Shown: positions 10,661 to 17,302, counted from the stretch's first letter. The stretch: DNA of 63,176 bases from an uncultured Clostridiaceae bacterium (GCA_964547525.1 CAZJOD010000003.1:1-63176), one strand, 5' to 3'. Translations and numbers: made by a program. The notes: generated by a model from the letters alone, not told the origin.

Positions 10661-11029
10661 TTATTCTGTTATTTCATACCCTTCATTTAGTAGGATATTA
10701 ATAGCATTTTCATAGTTTTCCACTTTAGTTAATATATAATCAGTATTATATGTCGATATCGCAAATATTCCGATTTTATTTTCTGCAAGTATAGTAGAAA
10801 TTTTTGATATAACTCCTATTAGAGAAAAGTCTAAAACACCCTGAACCCTAAAAGCTTTCCATGTTTTATCAAAATTTATTGTGTTTTTTGGTATGCAATT
10901 TATACTGCATACCAGTGAAATTTCTTCATCCGTTTTTCCTATAAAATAAAAATCATCCATATAATCAATTTCTGACAAATCTTCAACTTTGCATATAGCC
11001 AATTCGTTTTTTATTTTCAATAATTCCAC
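10661..11029 (-). CDS. Small ACT-domain-like protein
   Basis: 122 aa. The overall pattern resembles stand-alone ACT_7-type proteins. GTG start with AGAGGAGAA RBS. A TGGTATAAT extended -10 lies at 11080-11088. Confidence 0.45.
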   Translation of the reverse strand: MELLKIKNELAICKVEDLSEIDYMDDFYFIGKTDEEISLVCSINCIPKNTINFDKTWKAFRVQGVLDFSLIGVISKISTILAENKIGIFAISTYNTDYILTKVENYENAINILLNEGYEITE

Positions 11030-11194: not shown

Positions 11195-14173
11195 CTATTC
11201 AATCAGAAACAGTTTTTGTTTTTCTTCATAAGTAAGTTCTCTGCCGTTCAACTGTCTTTCTGCCTCACTAAACAGCATACCTACATCGTATGCCGGTATA
11301 ATAATAACTTTATCATCATAGATAAACAATAAATTTTCTAAAAGAGGATCTGCAGTACTAAAGTTGTTCAGGTCAGCTACCTTTTTATTAGTCTCGTTAT
11401 TCCATAAAACTGCTTTCCCAAAATTCCATGCGGTTATAAACCGGGTGTTATCCCTACTGAACAAGATAGTACGAAGCGTTCCGGGGAATCCCTCCAGCTC
11501 CATGATTAAAGATCCGGTATTTACACTATATCTTCTAATTACATAGTTTACAAGTTCAACAAAAAGAGTGTCGCCGGTGGAATCAAACAAAGCCGTTCGA
11601 GCCGGTACTCCACCAAGCGGGATGATGTTTACAACATCAAATGTATTGACATCTACTATGTCAATAGCACCTGTTTTATAGACACATGCCATTTTTTCAC
11701 CATCCGGGCTTATAGCAACATTGATCAAATCATCAGGAAGTTCATATATCAGATTCCCTGTTGCTATATCAAAAACAAATGCTTTATTTATTGTAATCAA
11801 GAGTATTCTTCGATTATCATGAAAAAATAAAATTGATTTGCTATATTGACTTATACTGGAAACTATTTCCTTATCAATCGTTGCTTGAACGGCAATACTT
11901 AAATCGGAAGTATTCAGAATAATATAACCGTCGTCTTTCAGAATACAGAGCAATGACTTATCAGCGTTGAAAAACGAATAATAAGGAGGGTAATCCCATG
12001 CTTTATACCTGACCACGTTCAGCGAATCGGCATCATAAAGTATTACACCATCCTCGTTTACCAGCAGTATGAATCGGTCATTGTTGACAAAGCCGATATT
12101 GAAAAGGATTACCTCGTTTTGCAAAGTTCCAATGAAGCTCTTACTTTCCATATCCCATACATCGGGGGTACCCCTATAAGATTTTTCCAGTGCGAGTAAC
12201 TTCTTGCCATCTGATGAGTAATAGGCATCGCAGTATGGTCGTATTGTAGGCAGAACCATTCCAAGGTTTGTGATGTGTCTGAGAATATTAACATTAACAG
12301 AATAGTCCATGGTGGCAACCAGAATATCCAAGCCTCCATCCAAACCGGCAATAGCGCCGTCCAATAAAATTCTATGATCCGGAACCTCTGCCAAATTATT
12401 TGCTTCGAGGGTATAGATGGTCCCATAGTTTGTTGACAATAGAATATGTTTGCCTACAAAGACACAGCCTGTAATCTTGTCCTCACCGGTAAAAGTACTT
12501 TTAACCTTTCTATTTCCTATATCAAGATGATTTATTGTCGTCTCATTACAATAGAGGAGATCGTTCCCATCCGGCATAAAATGTAGTAGGTTTACGGTAG
12601 TATGGCTATTTATGTTATACAGGGTTTCCATGTTTTTCAGGTCGAAAATTTCCAAGGTATTTCCTTCATGGCCACGTGAGGAAACGGCAATCAAACCGGC
12701 ATCGGACTGTGCAACAGCCTCTATATTGTAATGTACTGCCTTTAAAATGCTAACGAGATTTTTACTGTCCAAGTTAAAAACAAAAATATGTCCTTGGTCT
12801 GTTCCTGCAAACAATGTCTCACTTTCATTGTCAAATGATACAAAAGGAAAATAATTATACCCAAGTGAATCTAAATCATTATTTGAAGGGGAGAAACAAA
12901 AGAGTTCTTCTCCGTTTATGGTATCCAGAACGGTTATGGATTTACCTGCTATGGCCAGTTTGTTTTTGTCCGGACTCAGTGCCGTATCAAAATAACCTGT
13001 ATAGTGCCATAGCACCTCAAATGAATTGTTAATATCAAAACAATAGATATCATTGTTTGAGCAGACAATGATACTGTTAGCATCCCTGAAATAAATATCG
13101 GTCATAGACAGAACGGCACCATCCAGGTAGAGTTTATCGATTAACTCACCATGCTCCGCATCCCAAACATAAAGATAATAATCGGTTGCAAGGGTGATAA
13201 CTCTTTGATTATCAGGGCTTGCCAGAGCCTTTATAATATTTGACTTGTGTTTAAGAACAAGATCAGGTACAAAACAATTCTCCGTGTTATACACCATTAA
13301 CGCCCGGCTTAGCGCATACTCTCCTTCCTCCATATATGGGCGCTCGGGATTGGCAAAGTTTTTCGGCAGAGCCTCCCTAGCTACCATGATAGCCATTCTT
13401 CTATCTCCAATCTCCATCATTCGAGTTGAAACATCAGAAAGATAGAGAGATTGGCTTGTGAGGGTTTTTTGTACCTGCTCCTTCAAGAGCTCGGATTGCT
13501 TTTTTATTTGAAATGCCTGAAAAGCACTGAAGGATCCAAAGATCAAGAAGAAAAGGCAAAAGGCTATTGATACGGTAATAAATTTTTTAATGAATTGCTC
13601 CCGGTTTCTCTGTCTCAGGTCGTCGAAGCTGCAATTTAACATGGGTGCTAAAAGACGAAGCTTTTCAATTTTTAATTTTTTTTTCATACCGGGGACACCG
13701 GTATTGCGGATATCTGCAGCTAACGGTTCCAATTCTTCCGATGTTTCTGAGACAGATCCGTCAGGTCGGGTGAATTCTTTTTTTATGTATCTCAGACAAT
13801 TGGGAAAAGATTCATGGGGCTCACCTTCAATCAGCAACGTAAGTATTCTTTGGTGACCATGGAGTGATGAGAAGGTTTCTATCTCTTTTTGTACCCACTG
13901 AGACAACGGTGTTCTTGGTGAGCAGATAACAATTAGGTATTCTGAGTTTTCCAGCGCTTGACGAATATCATCGGCCAGATTAGGTGAGGTGGGAAGCTCG
14001 TCCCTGTCCCGGAAGATGCGTCCTATCTTTTTTGATCCGCCTTTTTTTCGGATGGCATTCGGAATCTTAAAGCTCTCCAGCTTTCTATGTAAGTTCTTCG
14101 CTATGCTTATATCGGGTTCAGTATGCCGATAGCTGATAAAAGCTGCATACTTCATGTCTTTTGAATCAATCAT
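11195..14173 (-). CDS. TIR domain - single transmembrane helix - WD40/PD40-like beta-propeller protein
   Basis: aa 8-135 carry TIR hallmarks (AAFISYRH, FRDRDELP, EYLIVICSP, SQWVQKEIE). A hydrophobic segment spans aa ~198-221 (FITVSIAFCLFFLIFGSFSAFQAF). About 770 aa of propeller-type repeats follow (ASPDNQRVITLATDYYLYVWD, ALSPDKNKLAIAGKSITVLD, AISPDGEKMACVYKTGAIDIVD). Confidence 0.8.
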   Translation of the reverse strand: MIDSKDMKYAAFISYRHTEPDISIAKNLHRKLESFKIPNAIRKKGGSKKIGRIFRDRDELPTSPNLADDIRQALENSEYLIVICSPRTPLSQWVQKEIETFSSLHGHQRILTLLIEGEPHESFPNCLRYIKKEFTRPDGSVSETSEELEPLAADIRNTGVPGMKKKLKIEKLRLLAPMLNCSFDDLRQRNREQFIKKFITVSIAFCLFFLIFGSFSAFQAFQIKKQSELLKEQVQKTLTSQSLYLSDVSTRMMEIGDRRMAIMVAREALPKNFANPERPYMEEGEYALSRALMVYNTENCFVPDLVLKHKSNIIKALASPDNQRVITLATDYYLYVWDAEHGELIDKLYLDGAVLSMTDIYFRDANSIIVCSNNDIYCFDINNSFEVLWHYTGYFDTALSPDKNKLAIAGKSITVLDTINGEELFCFSPSNNDLDSLGYNYFPFVSFDNESETLFAGTDQGHIFVFNLDSKNLVSILKAVHYNIEAVAQSDAGLIAVSSRGHEGNTLEIFDLKNMETLYNINSHTTVNLLHFMPDGNDLLYCNETTINHLDIGNRKVKSTFTGEDKITGCVFVGKHILLSTNYGTIYTLEANNLAEVPDHRILLDGAIAGLDGGLDILVATMDYSVNVNILRHITNLGMVLPTIRPYCDAYYSSDGKKLLALEKSYRGTPDVWDMESKSFIGTLQNEVILFNIGFVNNDRFILLVNEDGVILYDADSLNVVRYKAWDYPPYYSFFNADKSLLCILKDDGYIILNTSDLSIAVQATIDKEIVSSISQYSKSILFFHDNRRILLITINKAFVFDIATGNLIYELPDDLINVAISPDGEKMACVYKTGAIDIVDVNTFDVVNIIPLGGVPARTALFDSTGDTLFVELVNYVIRRYSVNTGSLIMELEGFPGTLRTILFSRDNTRFITAWNFGKAVLWNNETNKKVADLNNFSTADPLLENLLFIYDDKVIIIPAYDVGMLFSEAERQLNGRELTYEEKQKLFLIE

Positions 14174-14383
14174 CCAAATACCTCAAAAATAACATTCATT
14201 TAATAATGATACCTGACTTATGTTTTTTAGTCAACAACTCCAATATTTACTATAATAACAAATCTAAAATACTTATATTTCCTTTGTTTTTTACTGTCTT
14301 CCCCCTTACCACAAAAAAGGAGGGGTGTTAATGCATCACTGAGTATGGAAACCTTATAAACAAAGTCTATAATACCGATCTGC

Positions 14384-14412
14384 TTGCATTCAAATTATTC
14401 AAATGATAAAAT
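14384..14412 (+). promoter_or_regulatory. Candidate sigma-A promoter for the permease/amidohydrolase unit
   Basis: TTGCAT (14384-14389), a 17-nt spacer, then TAAAAT (14407-14412) with TG two nt upstream (extended -10). It lies 41 nt upstream of the GTG start. Confidence 0.35.
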
Positions 14413-14452
14413 AAAAATAAAAAGGGATGCTTTTTGATACGAGGAGGTTGTC

Positions 14453-15616
14453 GTGGACAATACTAAAAAGAAACTGACCTTTTTCGAAGCTACAAGCATA
14501 ATTACGGGCTATGGTATTGGAGGCGGTGTAATGGCGGTACCCTACCTTGCTTCACGCAATGGGGTATTCCCCGCACTACTAATCATGGCTGCAGCATTTG
14601 CCGTTAGTATATTGCTTCACTTGATGATTGCCGAGATATGCTCGGGAAAAAACGAGCCCAGACAGATATTGGAGATATTCAGGAAATACATATTTAAAGG
14701 AAAGCATGCTAATGTGCTAACGTGGTTTTTTTTCGGACTAATCCTCACAACTATGTTGGCGAATTTGGCAGCTTATGTGTCGGGAGCAGGTGAAATCCTT
14801 ACAAACTTGACCGGTATGCCACTTATGTTTTCACAGATCATTTTTTATCTCATCTCAGCCGGTATTGTGTTTTTTGGTCTAAAGGTTCTGGGAATCAGCG
14901 AAAAAATAGCTGTGCTTGGGATTGTTATTATCTTGACAGTTCTCACAATTGCCTCGTTTAATGTACCGTTTAATAACTTGCCCATGAAACCGGGTTCTCC
15001 AAATGCCGCTCTTGCCTTCTTTGGAATGATTATGTTTAGCTTTGCCGCCTTCTTTTCGGTTCCCCAGGCCGTTGAAGGTCTTCAAGGAGACACAAGAAAA
15101 ATAAAACTGTCAGTTATTTGTGGTATCGGAATCAATTTGGTTTTTATATTGGTTATCACCTTCATTTCACTTTTAGTTTCACAGGAAGTGACAGAGGTAG
15201 CCATCATAGGCTGGTCTGCAGCTGTGGGTGGTTGGGCAAATATATTGGGGTCCATTTTTATTTTACTTGCCATGGTGACTACATACTGGTCCATTTCGTT
15301 TGCTCTGGCCGTTATTGTAAAAGAAAGAATTTCTACAGGAACTCGCTTATCATGGCTGATTGCGACTCTACCTTCACTTGTGCCGGTACTGCTTGGAATG
15401 TCTGATTTCCTCGGGTTCATGCGTATGGCAGGCGGTAGTATCGCCATTTTAATTGCAGTTCTTGTGATACCTACCTACCGGGCATCGAGAAAAGCACATA
15501 TATGGGAATTTGATTACAAAATGACCTTGGGTTTGTTTGGTACAGCCCCTTTTCAGATTTTAGTCGTTATCGGTTATTTATTAATGATGGTTGGCTCGAT
15601 TATTCCACTGGAATAA
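14453..15616 (+). CDS. Amino-acid permease (aromatic amino acid / HAAAP-like family)
   Basis: ~11 hydrophobic segments. The N-terminal motif TGYGIGGGVMAVPY resembles Trp/Tyr-permease-type transporters. GTG start after GAGGAGG. Confidence 0.6.
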   Translation: MDNTKKKLTFFEATSIITGYGIGGGVMAVPYLASRNGVFPALLIMAAAFAVSILLHLMIAEICSGKNEPRQILEIFRKYIFKGKHANVLTWFFFGLILTTMLANLAAYVSGAGEILTNLTGMPLMFSQIIFYLISAGIVFFGLKVLGISEKIAVLGIVIILTVLTIASFNVPFNNLPMKPGSPNAALAFFGMIMFSFAAFFSVPQAVEGLQGDTRKIKLSVICGIGINLVFILVITFISLLVSQEVTEVAIIGWSAAVGGWANILGSIFILLAMVTTYWSISFALAVIVKERISTGTRLSWLIATLPSLVPVLLGMSDFLGFMRMAGGSIAILIAVLVIPTYRASRKAHIWEFDYKMTLGLFGTAPFQILVVIGYLLMMVGSIIPLE

Positions 15617-15637
15617 TTTTTAGTGAGGTGATTAATT

Positions 15638-17302
15638 TTGGCTATTTATGATCATTTAGTAGTAAATGCCGTTATCTATTCCCTTGAACGCGAAGGCGAG
15701 TATTTCTCAGCTATGGCCATAAAAAAGGGAAGAGTGGCGGCATTGTTCAAAGATCCCCCTGAACATGGATTAAAAATCGCAAAGAAGGTCACCGATGCAA
15801 AAGGTGGAATTATTATCCCCGGATTGATAGACAGCCATTTTCATTTTATGGCGACTGCTGCTCTGCAAGAGATGGCTTTAAATATTTCAGAGGTTTGCGA
15901 CGGTATACTTGAGCCACACAACCTTGCGGGAGTCGCAGAAAAAATACGAAAATTTGCATCACGTATAAAACCGTCACTTCCCATACTCTGTTTTAACTAT
16001 ATCATTGCTTCTATCCATGAGGACAGGCTTCCAATACGCGAGGAACTCGACAATTGGTTTCCCGGACGTATTGTTATAATAATCAGCATGGATGGGCATA
16101 GCAGTGCCTATTCGGGTGAAGCCCTCAAACATATTGGCATTACAGATAATGACCACAACGGAATTTTTTCAGGAGAGGACCATGATATGAACCTTGGCCG
16201 AATCAATGACCTGGTGATAAAAAGTTTGTCTCTTCCACTTCTGATTTCAGGTGTTAGGAAGGTCGTAAATGATGCAATTCACAATGGAATTGTAGGAATA
16301 CATTGCCTTGAAGGATTTGAAGATAGCAAGCATGATATGTCACTTCGGTTCTTAAGCCGGTTTGGCGGTATTCTTCCCCTATATTTGAGACTATACATAC
16401 AATACCGTAATCCCGCTAAAGTATTACCTTTTATCAAAAAATTAACTTACCCACGTATAGGTGGTTGTAATGCATGGGAGATGGACGGTTCTATCGGTTC
16501 GAGGACGGCATCCTTTTACGAACCGTATGCAGATCAGCCTCAAAATTATGGAAAATGCTATTACTCACCTGAGGAGGTTGAGCGGTATGTATTTGCAGCT
16601 CACGAAAAGGGATTTCAGATTACTTCCCATGCAATCGGGACAAGAGGAATAGAAAACATATTATCAGCCTATGAAAAGGCACTTTTGGTAGGTAAGATAC
16701 CGGTATCATCCCATTCGGATAATAAGAAGGCCGACTATTATAACCCATATAGACACAGGATAGACCATTTTGAATTTCCGACACGAGAACAGACGGCTCG
16801 TGCCTTGCACTGCGGACTGGTAATCACCACCCAACCGGGTTATTCATGGATGGACGAGACCTTTCAAAAGGCTTATCGAAAATATCTAACACCGGAACAA
16901 TTCCACCGCCAAATTCCACTTAAGTCCATCATGGAGCAAGGTGGTATTTTATGCGGTTCATCAGACAGTCCTATCCAACACTTGAATCCCTTTATTCAAA
17001 TTCACGGAATGGTAAATTTTCCAATTCCCACAGAACGCCTGTCTGTTTTTGAAGCATTGTGTACCTATACTATCAATGGTGCTTATGCCACCTTCGAGGA
17101 ACATGATCGTGGATCTCTTAAGGTTGGCAAACAGGCCGATTTCATTATCCTTGACAAGGACCCGTTTACCATTTCCCCAAATCGTCTATCGGATCTGAAA
17201 GTCCGTGCAACATATATAAAAGGTCGGAAAATGGAGGATTTAAAAATGAGCGTAATATCGTTACTGATACGAAAGCTCTTTCTGCCTTCTCGAAAATTAT
17301 AG
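15638..17302 (+). CDS. Amidohydrolase-family (amidohydrolase_3-like) metal-dependent hydrolase
   Basis: PGLIDSHFHF metal-binding HxH motif, HRIDHFE, GSSDSP and a C-terminal ADFIILDKDPF. TTG start after GAGGTGA. Confidence 0.75.
   Translation: MAIYDHLVVNAVIYSLEREGEYFSAMAIKKGRVAALFKDPPEHGLKIAKKVTDAKGGIIIPGLIDSHFHFMATAALQEMALNISEVCDGILEPHNLAGVAEKIRKFASRIKPSLPILCFNYIIASIHEDRLPIREELDNWFPGRIVIIISMDGHSSAYSGEALKHIGITDNDHNGIFSGEDHDMNLGRINDLVIKSLSLPLLISGVRKVVNDAIHNGIVGIHCLEGFEDSKHDMSLRFLSRFGGILPLYLRLYIQYRNPAKVLPFIKKLTYPRIGGCNAWEMDGSIGSRTASFYEPYADQPQNYGKCYYSPEEVERYVFAAHEKGFQITSHAIGTRGIENILSAYEKALLVGKIPVSSHSDNKKADYYNPYRHRIDHFEFPTREQTARALHCGLVITTQPGYSWMDETFQKAYRKYLTPEQFHRQIPLKSIMEQGGILCGSSDSPIQHLNPFIQIHGMVNFPIPTERLSVFEALCTYTINGAYATFEEHDRGSLKVGKQADFIILDKDPFTISPNRLSDLKVRATYIKGRKMEDLKMSVISLLIRKLFLPSRKL

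What the first reader, a model, noticed from the sequence alone, without database searches (positions are those of the whole stretch)
11195..14173. Orphan TIR - transmembrane helix - beta-propeller protein with Toll-like-receptor-like topology
Seen in sequence:
- The first ~135 aa carry TIR hallmarks, including the W-x3-E segment SQWVQKEIE. Glu97 sits where catalytic NADase glutamates lie in plant and bacterial TIRs (WCxxE).
- There is no signal peptide.
- One strongly hydrophobic 24-aa segment (aa ~198-221) is flanked by Lys-rich stretches.
- About 770 aa of WD40/PD40-type blades follow, probably enough for two propellers.
- The gene is a single-gene unit. The upstream region is a divergent promoter region, and the downstream ACT gene has its own extended -10 promoter.

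Established: bacterial TIR domains act as NAD+-consuming effectors or signal generators in anti-phage systems such as Thoeris, some CBASS and TIR-STING.

Inference: an N-in topology puts the TIR domain in the cytoplasm and the propeller outside the membrane. That would be an extracellular sensor wired to an intracellular TIR, unlike the cytosolic sensors of described TIR defence systems. No ThsA-like partner or other effector is adjacent. It could be a one-protein surface-sensing abortive-infection or signalling device.
Basis: partly seen in the sequence, partly recalled or inferred. Interest (0 to 1): 0.75.

Follow-up and report, generated by a model that had tools for sequence, protein, structure and literature searches.

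The report
Membrane receptor-like TIR–propeller protein
This gene encodes a bacterial membrane protein that most likely has an NAD-cleaving TIR enzyme inside the cell and two fast-evolving beta-propellers outside; it belongs to a large, undescribed family that would be a bacterial counterpart of Toll-like-receptor topology.

Summary
ORF 11195-14173 (-) encodes 992 aa:
- a TIR domain above Pfam cut-offs, with an invariant catalytic-type Glu97;
- one TM helix;
- a coiled-coil stalk;
- about 15-16 WD40-type blades (two propellers);
- a conserved C-terminal tail.

"Orphan" is wrong at family level. At least 2,600 sequence clusters share the N-terminal module, mostly in Clostridia.

Family evidence supports TIR-in / propeller-out:
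- K+R before the TM averages 6.2, against 2.2 after it; N exceeds C in 99% of 319 proteins.
- The TM-plus-stalk helix varies in length only by whole heptads (173 of 182 proteins).
- Related TIR-TM proteins carry PDZ, lectin-like DUF6273 or Bmp/PnrA solute-binding domains instead of propellers.

The TIR and linker are about 60% identical across the family; the propellers are about 18%.

In 54 of 80 genomic loci a DHH/DHHA1 phosphoesterase is adjacent and often translationally coupled. The window copy is solo: no DHH in 63 kb, and its neighbours are housekeeping genes.

Best reading: an outside-in receptor that switches on TIR NAD+ cleavage. Whether the role is defence or general signalling is unresolved. 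No description was found in the literature searched. It is a new variant of a known kind.

The parts
11195..14173 (-). Whole ORF, 992 aa: TIR - linker - TM - coiled-coil stalk - tandem WD40-type propellers - tail
   Evidence: ORF list. Full-length AlphaFold2 model: pLDDT 87.6, pTM 0.73.
13790..14149 (-). TIR domain core, aa 9-128 (betaA 9-14 to the alphaD region)
   Evidence: TIR_2 38.2 bits and ThsB_TIR 36.9 bits, both above cut-off. Model pLDDT 88. Foldseek top hits are all TIR domains (RPP1, RUN1, TIR-1, SPARTA, AbTir, SARM1) at probability 1.0.
13883..13885 (-). Codon of Glu97, the putative catalytic glutamate near the start of helix alphaC (aa 92-105)
   Evidence: Invariant in alignments A1, A2 and A7, and at the equivalent column of A6. 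Aligns with the Glu of plant SxWCLxEL (3jrn, 7vu8) and of BtpA/TcpB QWPARE.
13583..13789 (-). Family-specific cytoplasmic extension and juxtamembrane linker, aa 129-197. It contains a beta-hairpin, the 'EPLAADIR' strand, helix 160-179 and the 'DDLRQRNRE' motif.
   Evidence: Mean pairwise identity over aa 136-197 is 0.55 across the family. Invariant residues: E149, L151, A153, D154, R156, E170, R173, D184, L186, R189.
13511..13582 (-). Single transmembrane helix, aa 198-221
   Evidence: Only hydrophobic peak in the protein (KD19 2.26). Conserved in position in nearly all homologues. Lies inside one continuous predicted helix, aa 183-255.
13283..13510 (-). Coiled-coil stalk and pre-propeller helical cap, aa 222-297 ('GDRRMAIMVAREALP...PERPYMEEGEYAL')
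   Evidence: Helices 183-254, 258-267 and 282-292. The spacing from the juxtamembrane motif to the GDR motif is 63 residues here and a multiple of 7 in 173 of 182 family members.
11294..13282 (-). Tandem WD40-type beta-propellers, aa 298-960 (about 63 strands, about 15-16 blades); the fast-evolving putative sensor
   Evidence: Pfam propeller hits. Model secondary structure. Foldseek matches to tandem WD40 proteins: Utp/WDR3, Nostoc 2ymu, Apaf-1. Mean pairwise identity only 0.18.
11198..11293 (-). Conserved C-terminal helical tail, aa 961-992 ('EAERQLNGRELTYEEKQKLFLIE')
   Evidence: Helices 964-975 and 982-987. The consensus 'EA..QL.GR.LT..EK...FI' is kept even in distant members.
14206..14234 (-). 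Promoter-like site TTGACT-17-TATCAT upstream of the gene, with a GAGG ribosome-binding site at 14181-14184
   Evidence: Consensus scan, 10 of 12 matches. Sequence read. Consensus match only.

Best explanation
The gene encodes a type-II (N-in) single-pass membrane receptor.

Anatomy, shown from sequence and models:
- An N-terminal TIR domain of the enzymatic, Glu-containing kind, plus a conserved juxtamembrane extension, on the cytoplasmic side.
- One long helix that crosses the membrane and continues as a coiled-coil stalk.
- Two WD40-type propellers with a helical cap and tail on the outer face.

Proposed mechanism, inferred:
1. A ligand binds the variable propellers at the cell surface.
2. 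Binding changes the oligomeric state or the helical register of the coiled coil.
3. This brings the cytoplasmic TIR domains into the assembled state in which TIR enzymes cleave NAD+.
4. The output is either NAD+ depletion or an ADP-ribose-derived nucleotide.
5. In most family members the product is read or destroyed by a co-encoded cytoplasmic NrnA-like DHH/DHHA1 phosphoesterase that has a 200-aa C-terminal extension.

The window copy has no partner within 63 kb. It either acts alone or uses one encoded elsewhere.

Biological role: I lean slightly towards surveillance of the cell surface in a conflict or defence setting. This is not shown.
For: TIR identity and fold.

Catalytic Glu: invariant, and aligned to the Glu of plant and Brucella TIRs.

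Topology:
- No signal peptide and a single TM helix.
- In 319 non-identical relatives, K+R in the 15 residues before the TM averages 6.18 +/- 0.93, against 2.17 +/- 0.97 after it. N>C in 99.1% of proteins, with no reversals.

Mechanical coupling:
- AF2 predicts one helix over aa 183-255.
- The distance between the cytoplasmic motif and the pre-propeller motif takes only the values 56, 63, 70, 77, 84, 91, 126, 133, 168 and 175 in 173 of 182 proteins. Eight others are offset by +4, a stutter.

Receptor-like evolution: TIR 0.60 and linker 0.55 identity, against 0.18 for the propellers.

Ectodomain swapping:
- The same TIR-TM module is fused to PDZ (L164) or to TPR-like repeats (L066, L166).
- Separate TIR_2-TM proteins next to the same DHH gene carry C-lectin-like DUF6273 (5 loci) or Bmp/PnrA substrate-binding domains (L090). 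Bmp/PnrA domains are extracytoplasmic by established knowledge.

Partner:
- DHH is adjacent in 54 of 80 loci, in varying order and orientation, with gaps of -3 to +20 nt in many.
- All DHH and GGGH catalytic motifs are invariant.
- It is closest to NrnA / Rv2837c / TmPDE / cyclic-dinucleotide phosphodiesterases.
- In the reciprocal test, TIR-WD40 is the commonest DHH neighbour (34 of 79 loci; 19 of 38 with full flanks).
Against: - Nothing here is experimental. Topology, oligomerisation, NADase activity and ligand are all inferred.
- In the query itself the flank-charge bias is weak (5 K+R before the TM, 3-4 after).
- The propeller region is not depleted in Cys (1.16%), so there is no compositional sign of export.
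- WD40-type repeats with this helical cap and tail also look like those of cytoplasmic STAND proteins (my recollection, not tested).
- The window copy and its closest relatives (L001-L003, L007) lack DHH within 10 kb.
- DHH also occurs without any TIR neighbour in about half of well-flanked loci, inside a housekeeping purine/GlnRS block. It may be a core enzyme with another main job.
- No PADLOC or NCBIfam defence model matches beyond the TIR part.
- Neighbours are mostly housekeeping.
Confidence: 0.45

Rival explanations
1. Same receptor architecture, but an ordinary (non-immune) transmembrane second-messenger pathway. The ectodomain senses a metabolite, a cell-wall fragment or a neighbour cue. 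The TIR makes an NAD-derived messenger, and the DHH enzyme is the turnover phosphodiesterase, as GdpP is for c-di-AMP.
For: - Flanking genes are housekeeping, not defence islands.
- DHH sits in a conserved IMPDH / IMP-cyclohydrolase / PurH ... GlnRS block.
- One DHH-linked TIR-TM protein has a Bmp/PnrA-type ectodomain, a nucleoside-binding type.
- No copies on phages and few on plasmids.
- The DHH is closest to messenger- and nanoRNA-degrading phosphodiesterases.
Against: - Presence/absence polymorphism of the TIR gene within an otherwise syntenic block.
- Tandem and clustered paralogues (L006, L036, L066, L164, L166).
- Extreme divergence of the sensor against a conserved TIR.
- No synteny among close relatives.
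- Every bacterial TIR enzyme with a known role acts in conflict (established knowledge).
Confidence: 0.3
2. One reading: a self-contained, one-protein abortive-infection device. Surface sensing directly triggers NAD+ depletion by the TIR, and no partner is needed.
For: - The window copy and its nearest relatives are solo.
- 26 of 80 loci lack DHH.
- NAD+-depleting TIR effectors such as TIR-STING, TIR-SAVED and SPARTA need no downstream partner (established knowledge). These are among the structural matches.
Against: - Most family members keep a tightly linked DHH, or alternatively RyR or multi-TM neighbours.
- Genomes with two paralogues have one linked copy and one solo copy, which suggests partners shared in trans.
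Confidence: 0.15
3. The hydrophobic helix does not put the propellers outside. It is a membrane tether or an oligomerisation helix, and both the TIR and the WD40 sensor face the cytoplasm, as in cytosolic TIR-STAND-WD40 sensors.
For: - WD40 repeats in bacteria are best known from cytoplasmic STAND proteins.
- Propeller Cys content is ordinary.
- No topology predictor or experiment was available.
Against: - A single 24-residue hydrophobic stretch sits inside a straight 70-residue helix.
- The positive-inside bias is strong and universal.
- Sibling proteins have Bmp/PnrA, PDZ and lectin-like C-termini.
- No NTPase domain is present.
Confidence: 0.06
4. The TIR is a non-catalytic scaffold, as in animal TLRs. 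It recruits other proteins by TIR-TIR contacts.
For: TLR2 also carries a Glu at the aligned position, so the Glu alone does not prove catalysis.
Against: - No second TIR gene exists in the window.
- The Glu and the surrounding S.W..KE motif are invariant over very divergent members.
- The best fold matches are enzymatic TIRs.
- The partner is a nucleotide phosphoesterase.
Confidence: 0.04

Closest known systems
Animal Toll-like / IL-1 receptors
   Same: Single-pass membrane protein with a repeat-built external sensor and a cytoplasmic TIR. Activation is expected through ligand-induced association.
   Different: - Opposite polarity: here the TIR is N-terminal with no signal peptide (type II), whereas TLRs are type I.
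- The ectodomain is WD40 propellers, not LRR or Ig.
- The TIR resembles enzymatic TIRs rather than scaffold TIRs.
- There is no MyD88-like adaptor.
- The resemblance is almost certainly convergent.
Thoeris ThsB and other bacterial TIR NADases (AbTir, BtpA/TcpB, SPARTA TIR, TIR-STING, TIR-SAVED)
   Same: TIR fold, a ThsB_TIR profile match, and a conserved catalytic-type Glu. The likely output is NAD+ cleavage or an ADPR-derived signal.
   Different: - No ThsA, Argonaute, STING or SAVED module.
- Membrane-anchored, with the sensor predicted outside the cell. All described systems sense inside the cell.
- The recurrent partner is a DHH/DHHA1 phosphoesterase, which the literature searched does not report for TIR systems.
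TIR-NTPase-WD40/TPR STAND proteins (bacterial NLR-like, Apaf-1-type)
   Same: An N-terminal effector followed by tandem WD40 sensor propellers. Apaf-1 is among the best fold matches for the propeller pair.
   Different: There is no NTPase switch. A TM helix and a heptad-phased coiled coil sit where the NTPase would be.
Receptor Ser/Thr kinases such as PknD (kinase-TM-beta-propeller), and clostridial RsgI-type anti-sigma factors
   Same: Type-II topology: an N-terminal cytoplasmic output domain, a single TM helix and an extracytoplasmic sensor domain (established knowledge).
   Different: The output is a TIR domain, not a kinase or an anti-sigma domain. There is no sequence relationship.
NrnA / GdpP / Rv2837c-type DHH-DHHA1 phosphodiesterases (for the family's partner gene)
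   Same: DHH and GGGH motifs are intact, and these are the best PDB sequence matches.
   Different: The partner has an extra ~200-aa conserved C-terminal region with no Pfam match. Its substrate is unknown. It is not present in the window.

Membership tests
TIR domain (Pfam TIR_2 / STIR clan) | Profile match above the curated cut-off | tested here: met
   TIR_2 38.2 bits against 28; ThsB_TIR 36.9 bits against 21.2.
TIR domain (Pfam TIR_2 / STIR clan) | Flavodoxin-like alpha/beta fold superposable on solved TIR domains | tested here: met
   Model pLDDT 88.2. All top Foldseek PDB hits are TIR domains at probability 1.0.
Enzymatic (NADase-type) TIR | Conserved glutamate at the start of alphaC (W-x3-E) | tested here: met
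   E97 is invariant. It aligns to the Glu in plant SxWCLxEL and in BtpA QWPARE. It lies in helix 92-105.
Enzymatic (NADase-type) TIR | NAD(P)+ cleavage abolished by mutating the Glu | not testable with these tools
   Needs a biochemical assay.
Thoeris | ThsB-type TIR gene next to a ThsA (SIR2 or Macro/TM plus SLOG) gene | tested here: not met
   No SIR2, Macro or SLOG among the window's neighbours or among the most frequent Pfam families of 134 family neighbours. Thoeris models in NCBIfam and PADLOC are not matched.
Animal TLR / IL-1R family | Type-I protein with a signal peptide, an LRR or Ig ectodomain and a C-terminal scaffold TIR | tested here: not met
   The TIR is N-terminal, there is no signal peptide, and the C-terminal region is WD40 propellers.
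Animal TLR / IL-1R family | Ectodomain outside and TIR in the cytoplasm across a single TM helix | tested here: inconclusive
   Strong indirect support, but no topology predictor or experiment was available.
STAND / NLR-like TIR-NTPase-WD40 | Central P-loop NTPase (NACHT / NB-ARC) between effector and repeats | tested here: not met
   No NTPase profile hit. Aa 136-297 are a beta-hairpin, TM helix, coiled coil and helical cap.
WD40 beta-propeller superfamily | Four-stranded blades forming closed propellers, with WD40-clan profile matches | tested here: met
   Multiple WD40-clan hits with E-values down to 2.8e-27, below the family-specific cut-offs. About 63 strands. Tandem-WD40 fold matches at E 1e-30.
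CBASS / Pycsar TIR effectors | A cyclase gene plus a nucleotide-sensing domain (SAVED, STING, cNMP-binding) fused to the TIR | tested here: not met
   The PADLOC SAVED_TIR hit covers only the TIR part (E 1.9e-6). No cyclase is nearby.

The most novel reading that the evidence does not exclude
Bacteria possess a widespread outside-in TIR signalling pathway.
- It uses a family of single-pass receptors with interchangeable external sensors: tandem propellers, PDZ, and possibly lectin-like and solute-binding domains in sibling lineages.
- The receptor controls a cytoplasmic NAD+-cleaving TIR through a register-sensitive transmembrane coiled coil.
- A dedicated DHH phosphoesterase reads or terminates the NAD-derived messenger.
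- This would be the first bacterial TIR system that senses events at the cell surface, such as phage adsorption, competitors or envelope damage. It would be a functional analogue of Toll-like receptors that arose independently.
Probability: 0.35. Interest if true: 0.9.

Novelty: new variant of a known kind. Interest (0 to 1): 0.7.

Why it matters
All characterised bacterial TIR systems (Thoeris, TIR-STING, TIR-SAVED, SPARTA, TIR-STAND) detect signals inside the cell.

- **Surface sensing.** A large family in which an enzymatic TIR is wired through the membrane to an external, rapidly evolving sensor would show that receptor-type surface sensing coupled to TIR output exists in bacteria. It would also sharpen the question of how TLR-like logic evolved.
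- **A possible new pathway.** The recurrent DHH phosphoesterase partner suggests an unrecognised NAD-derived nucleotide signalling or turnover step.
- **A designable experiment.** The heptad-quantised stalk offers a direct test of transmembrane signalling by register.
- **Ecological reach.** The family is common in gut and anaerobic-digester Clostridia (Lachnospiraceae, Butyrivibrio, Roseburia), so any function would bear on those communities.

Tried and rejected
- **Defence-system libraries.** PADLOC and NCBIfam gave only weak TIR-part hits.
- **PADLOC on 134 neighbours.** It returned 'mad3' and 'mad8' (6 each) and generic ATPase models. At least some are probably SbcC-like or ABC ATPases. 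I do not count them as defence context.
- **Cysteine depletion as a sign of export.** There is no depletion, and the test is uninformative for anaerobes.
- **Synteny between the window and its closest relatives.** None.
- **Phage carriage.** None. Plasmid hits are few and lie on large secondary replicons.
- **Other C-terminal domains in length variants of this TIR lineage.** The most frequent Pfam families in 39 scanned variants are all propellers.
- **My guess that the 607-aa multi-TM neighbour in L164/L166 starts with a SLOG domain.** There was no PDB sequence hit, and only a faint DUF4231 record. It remains an unverified lead.
- **Literature.** Nine searches and seven papers were read. None describes TIR-TM-WD40 or a TIR-DHH pairing. 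One search was uninformative because of term collisions.
- **GC and GC3.** The gene (0.392 / 0.383) is slightly above the window mean (0.349) but within the range of its neighbours. This is not evidence of transfer.
Full report
**1. What is in the window**

The ORF 11195..14173 on the minus strand encodes 992 aa.

- **TIR.** Pfam places a TIR domain at aa 12-129: TIR_2 38.2 bits against a cut-off of 28, and ThsB_TIR 36.9 against 21.2. It also gives many partial WD40-clan propeller hits between aa ~300 and 940, with E-values down to 2.8e-27.
- **Defence libraries.** PADLOC and NCBIfam recognise only the TIR part, and weakly.
- **Membrane segment.** The only strongly hydrophobic stretch is aa ~193-223, with a 19-residue Kyte-Doolittle peak of 2.26 at aa 198-216. 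There is no N-terminal signal-like region.
- **Neighbours.** All are metabolic or transport genes: ACT_7, SulP/STAS, beta-eliminating lyase, Trp/Tyr permease, amidohydrolase, DUF6485, LipB and LipA.
- **Transcription signals.** A promoter-like site (TTGACT-17-TATCAT) and a GAGG ribosome-binding site precede the gene. An extended -10 precedes the downstream ACT gene. No terminator-like hairpin separates the two genes. These are consensus matches only.

**2. Structure**

Two AlphaFold2 models were built with family alignments.

- The N-terminal 297 aa reach pLDDT 88.2. The full length reaches pLDDT 87.6 and pTM 0.73.
- The models show a TIR alpha/beta fold. Helix alphaC spans aa 92-105, so Glu97 is in its first turns.
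- After the TIR core come a beta-hairpin and an extra strand ('EPLAADIR'), then helix 160-179.
- One uninterrupted helix runs from aa 183 to ~255 and contains the hydrophobic segment.
- Two short helices follow (258-267 and 282-292), then about 63 beta-strands from aa 301 to 960 (about 15-16 four-stranded blades), then two terminal helices.
- Foldseek against the PDB returns only TIR domains for the N-terminal model. The best are enzymatic ones: RPP1, RUN1, TIR-1/SARM1, SPARTA and AbTir. For the full model it returns tandem WD40 proteins: Utp/WDR3, Nostoc 2ymu and Apaf-1.
- A TIR-only family profile aligns the family's 'S.W..KE' onto the plant 'SxWCLxEL' motif (3jrn, 7vu8) and onto Brucella BtpA/TcpB 'QWPARE', with E97 on the conserved Glu. 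By established knowledge, that Glu is the catalytic residue of NADase TIRs.
- The same column also holds a Glu in TLR2. The residue is therefore necessary for catalysis but not sufficient evidence of it.

**3. Not an orphan**

- The protein search found more than 100 full-length homologues of about 1,000 aa with the same architecture. The best is only 40% identical. Where named, they are called 'TIR domain-containing protein' or 'WD40 repeat protein', and come from Clostridiaceae, Thermoclostridium, Acetivibrionales, Heliobacillus and Deltaproteobacteria.
Nearly all are Clostridia, especially Lachnospiraceae.
- An exhaustive HMMER search with the N-terminal 297 aa found 2,600 representatives (50%-identity clusters) at E<=1e-30.
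- Variants of ~830 aa or more than 1,100 aa still carry propellers, with WD40, PD40 or PQQ-type hits.

**4. Topology and coupling**

- **Charge bias.** The TM helix is conserved in position. In 319 non-identical relatives the 15 residues before it hold 6.18 +/- 0.93 Lys+Arg, against 2.17 +/- 0.97 after it. N>C in 99.1% of proteins, with no reversals. By the positive-inside rule (established knowledge), and given the absence of a signal peptide, the TIR is cytoplasmic and the propellers are outside. The query alone is only weakly biased (5 against 3-4).
- **Heptad phasing.** The spacing between the cytoplasmic juxtamembrane motif (DDL[KR]QRHRE) and the first pre-propeller helix (G[DN]R..A) is an exact multiple of seven in 173 of 182 proteins: 56, 63, 70, 77, 84, 91, 126, 133, 168 or 175. 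The query's spacing is 63. Eight others are offset by +4, the classical coiled-coil stutter, and one is a motif mis-hit. The TM helix and stalk therefore form one coiled coil whose register between the TIR side and the sensor side is preserved while its length triples. This is what one expects if conformational information passes along it.
- **Uneven conservation.** Mean pairwise identity is TIR 0.60, linker 0.55, TM 0.36, stalk and cap 0.44, propellers 0.18 and tail 0.34.

**5. A recurrent partner elsewhere**

- Clustering ORFs around the 80 fetched loci showed a ~505-aa protein adjacent in 54 of them. It is upstream on the same strand in 28, downstream on the same strand in 16, and on the opposite strand in 10. 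Gaps are often -3 to +20 nt.
- It is a DHH plus DHHA1 phosphoesterase. All catalytic motifs are invariant. It is closest to NrnA, Rv2837c, TmPDE and cyclic-dinucleotide phosphodiesterases. It has a conserved ~200-aa C-terminal region with no Pfam match.
- In the reciprocal test on metagenome contigs, the TIR-propeller family is the commonest neighbour of this DHH subfamily: 34 of 79 loci, and 19 of 38 loci with >=3.3 kb on both sides.
- Gene orders show a Lachnospiraceae block: IMPDH - GGDEF/EAL - IMP cyclohydrolase - PurH - DHH - [TIR-propeller present or absent] - GlnRS - DUF2225. DHH therefore behaves as a core gene, and the TIR gene as a variably present neighbour. In other genomes the pair occurs in unrelated contexts and in the other order.
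- Among DHH loci without the propeller family, six carry a different TIR_2-TM protein within two genes. Five have a DUF6273 C-terminus. One has a Bmp/PnrA-type substrate-binding C-terminus (L090: TIR_2 79.8 bits, Bmp 75.5 bits).
- DUF6273 is described as a C-type-lectin-like binding fold of phage receptor-binding proteins (PMC10743442).
- Bmp/PnrA domains are extracytoplasmic solute-binding domains (established knowledge). This independently supports TIR-in / sensor-out for membrane TIR proteins that pair with this DHH.

**6. Other contexts**

- **RyR-like neighbour.** Six DHH-lacking Lachnospiraceae loci have a ~490-aa neighbour (c18) instead. It has an N-terminal TM helix, a Rossmann-like motif and a borderline RyR domain (26.2 bits against 27.4).
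- **Non-Clostridia loci (L164, and L166 from a Deltaproteobacteria MAG).** The TIR-TM-WD40 gene is followed by a conserved 607-aa multi-TM protein (faint DUF4231 record), a 94-aa RyR protein, an M48 peptidase and zinc-ribbon proteins. Further TIR paralogues are nearby: one with the same N-terminal module and a C-terminal PDZ, one with TPRs.
- **Heliobacterium mobile.** It has four paralogues within 13 kb.
- **Tandem paralogues.** These occur in L006 and L036.
- **Two-paralogue genomes.** OH_CDB_78 and RGIG2054 each have one DHH-linked copy and one solo copy.

**7. The window copy**

- It is solo. There is no DHH, c18, c451 or second TIR gene anywhere in the 63 kb.
- It shares no synteny with its closest relatives, whose neighbours are also housekeeping genes.
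- Bulk scans of 134 family neighbours are dominated by PurH, DUF2225, GlnRS, ABC transporters, tRNA synthetases and two-component proteins.
- The PADLOC hits there are few and mostly generic ATPase models.
- No phage carries the family.

**8. Interpretation**

*Shown:*
- the domain anatomy;
- the conserved catalytic-type Glu;
- the conserved single TM helix with a strong charge bias;
- the heptad-phased stalk;
- the conserved TIR against a fast-diverging sensor;
- the non-random linkage to a DHH phosphoesterase in relatives.

*Inferred:*
- The protein is a type-II receptor with external propellers.
- Ligand binding changes coiled-coil register or oligomeric state, and so assembles active cytoplasmic TIRs.
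- The NAD-derived product is handled by DHH or an alternative partner.

*Open:* the role, defence or general signalling.
- Patchy presence, paralogue clusters and sensor hypervariability point to conflict.
- Housekeeping neighbourhoods, the core-like DHH and a nucleoside-binding ectodomain variant point to ordinary signalling.

**9. Comparison and novelty**

- It works like a Toll-like receptor in topology only. It fails TLR membership on polarity, ectodomain type and TIR type.
- It is a TIR-domain protein of the enzymatic type. It is not Thoeris (no ThsA), not CBASS or Pycsar, and not a STAND protein (no NTPase).
- The nearest functional analogues in bacteria are receptor kinases such as PknD.
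- Nine literature searches and seven papers read found no description of TIR-TM-WD40 or of a TIR-DHH pairing. Subscription journals are not covered by that library.
- I therefore rate it a new variant of a known kind, with interest 0.7.

Noticed in passing
L004-L080 (e.g. L004:13004-14500 -, L011:5498-7060 +); not in the window: A ~505-aa DHH/DHHA1 phosphoesterase with a 200-aa C-terminal extension of unknown function is the immediate neighbour of the TIR-TM-WD40 gene in 54 of 80 loci. It is often translationally coupled.
   Followed up: yes
L147, L148, L152, L158, L159 (e.g. L158:4646-5998 +) and L090:554-2107 (-): The same DHH subfamily also sits next to other membrane TIR proteins: TIR_2-TM-DUF6273 (lectin-like) in five loci, and TIR_2-TM-Bmp/PnrA (solute-binding) in one.
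   Followed up: yes
window 13283-13598 (aa 192-297) and all family members: The length of the TM-plus-stalk helix is quantised in heptads. The motif-to-motif spacing is a multiple of 7 in 173 of 182 proteins (56 to 175 residues). Eight others are offset by +4, a stutter.
   Followed up: yes
L012, L014, L015, L037, L047, L078 (e.g. L014:6045-7505 -): In six loci lacking DHH, a ~490-aa protein sits next to the TIR-WD40 gene. It has an N-terminal TM helix, a Rossmann-like motif and a borderline RyR domain. It may be an alternative partner.
   Followed up: partly
L164:10979-17058 and L166:11321-19264: Non-Clostridia loci keep a cluster: TIR-TM-WD40, a 607-aa multi-TM protein (faint DUF4231), a 94-aa RyR protein, an M48 peptidase with zinc ribbons, and extra TIR paralogues (TIR-TM-PDZ, TIR-TPR). 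A SLOG-like N-terminus of the 607-aa protein was guessed but not confirmed.
   Followed up: partly
L066:1-13159 (Heliobacterium mobile DSM 6151): Four paralogues of the TIR-TM module lie within 13 kb. Their C-termini are WD40, TPR-like, coiled coil only (with a degenerate TIR), and one cut off by the contig end.
   Followed up: partly
L094/L097/L102/L116 versus L101/L103/L104/L106/L153: The TIR-WD40 gene is present or absent between DHH and GlnRS in an otherwise conserved Lachnospiraceae block of purine-biosynthesis genes and GlnRS.
   Followed up: yes
window 10661-11029 and 11195-17302: The small ACT-domain gene downstream has very low GC (0.266). The TIR gene and the two divergent genes (permease, amidohydrolase) have somewhat higher GC and GC3 than the other genes examined. 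This is too weak to call horizontal transfer.
   Followed up: no
neighbours of L001-L080 (alignment A4): PADLOC models 'mad3' and 'mad8' each matched 6 of 134 neighbouring ORFs (best E 1e-56 and 3e-19).
   Followed up: no
L162:6548-9304 (Sinorhizobium sp. K101 plasmid pK101b) and related Rhizobium / Novosphingobium replicons: Proteobacterial proteins on large secondary replicons share the TIR-linker-TM part (aa 8-242 of the query, ~33% identity). Their downstream regions were not examined.
   Followed up: no
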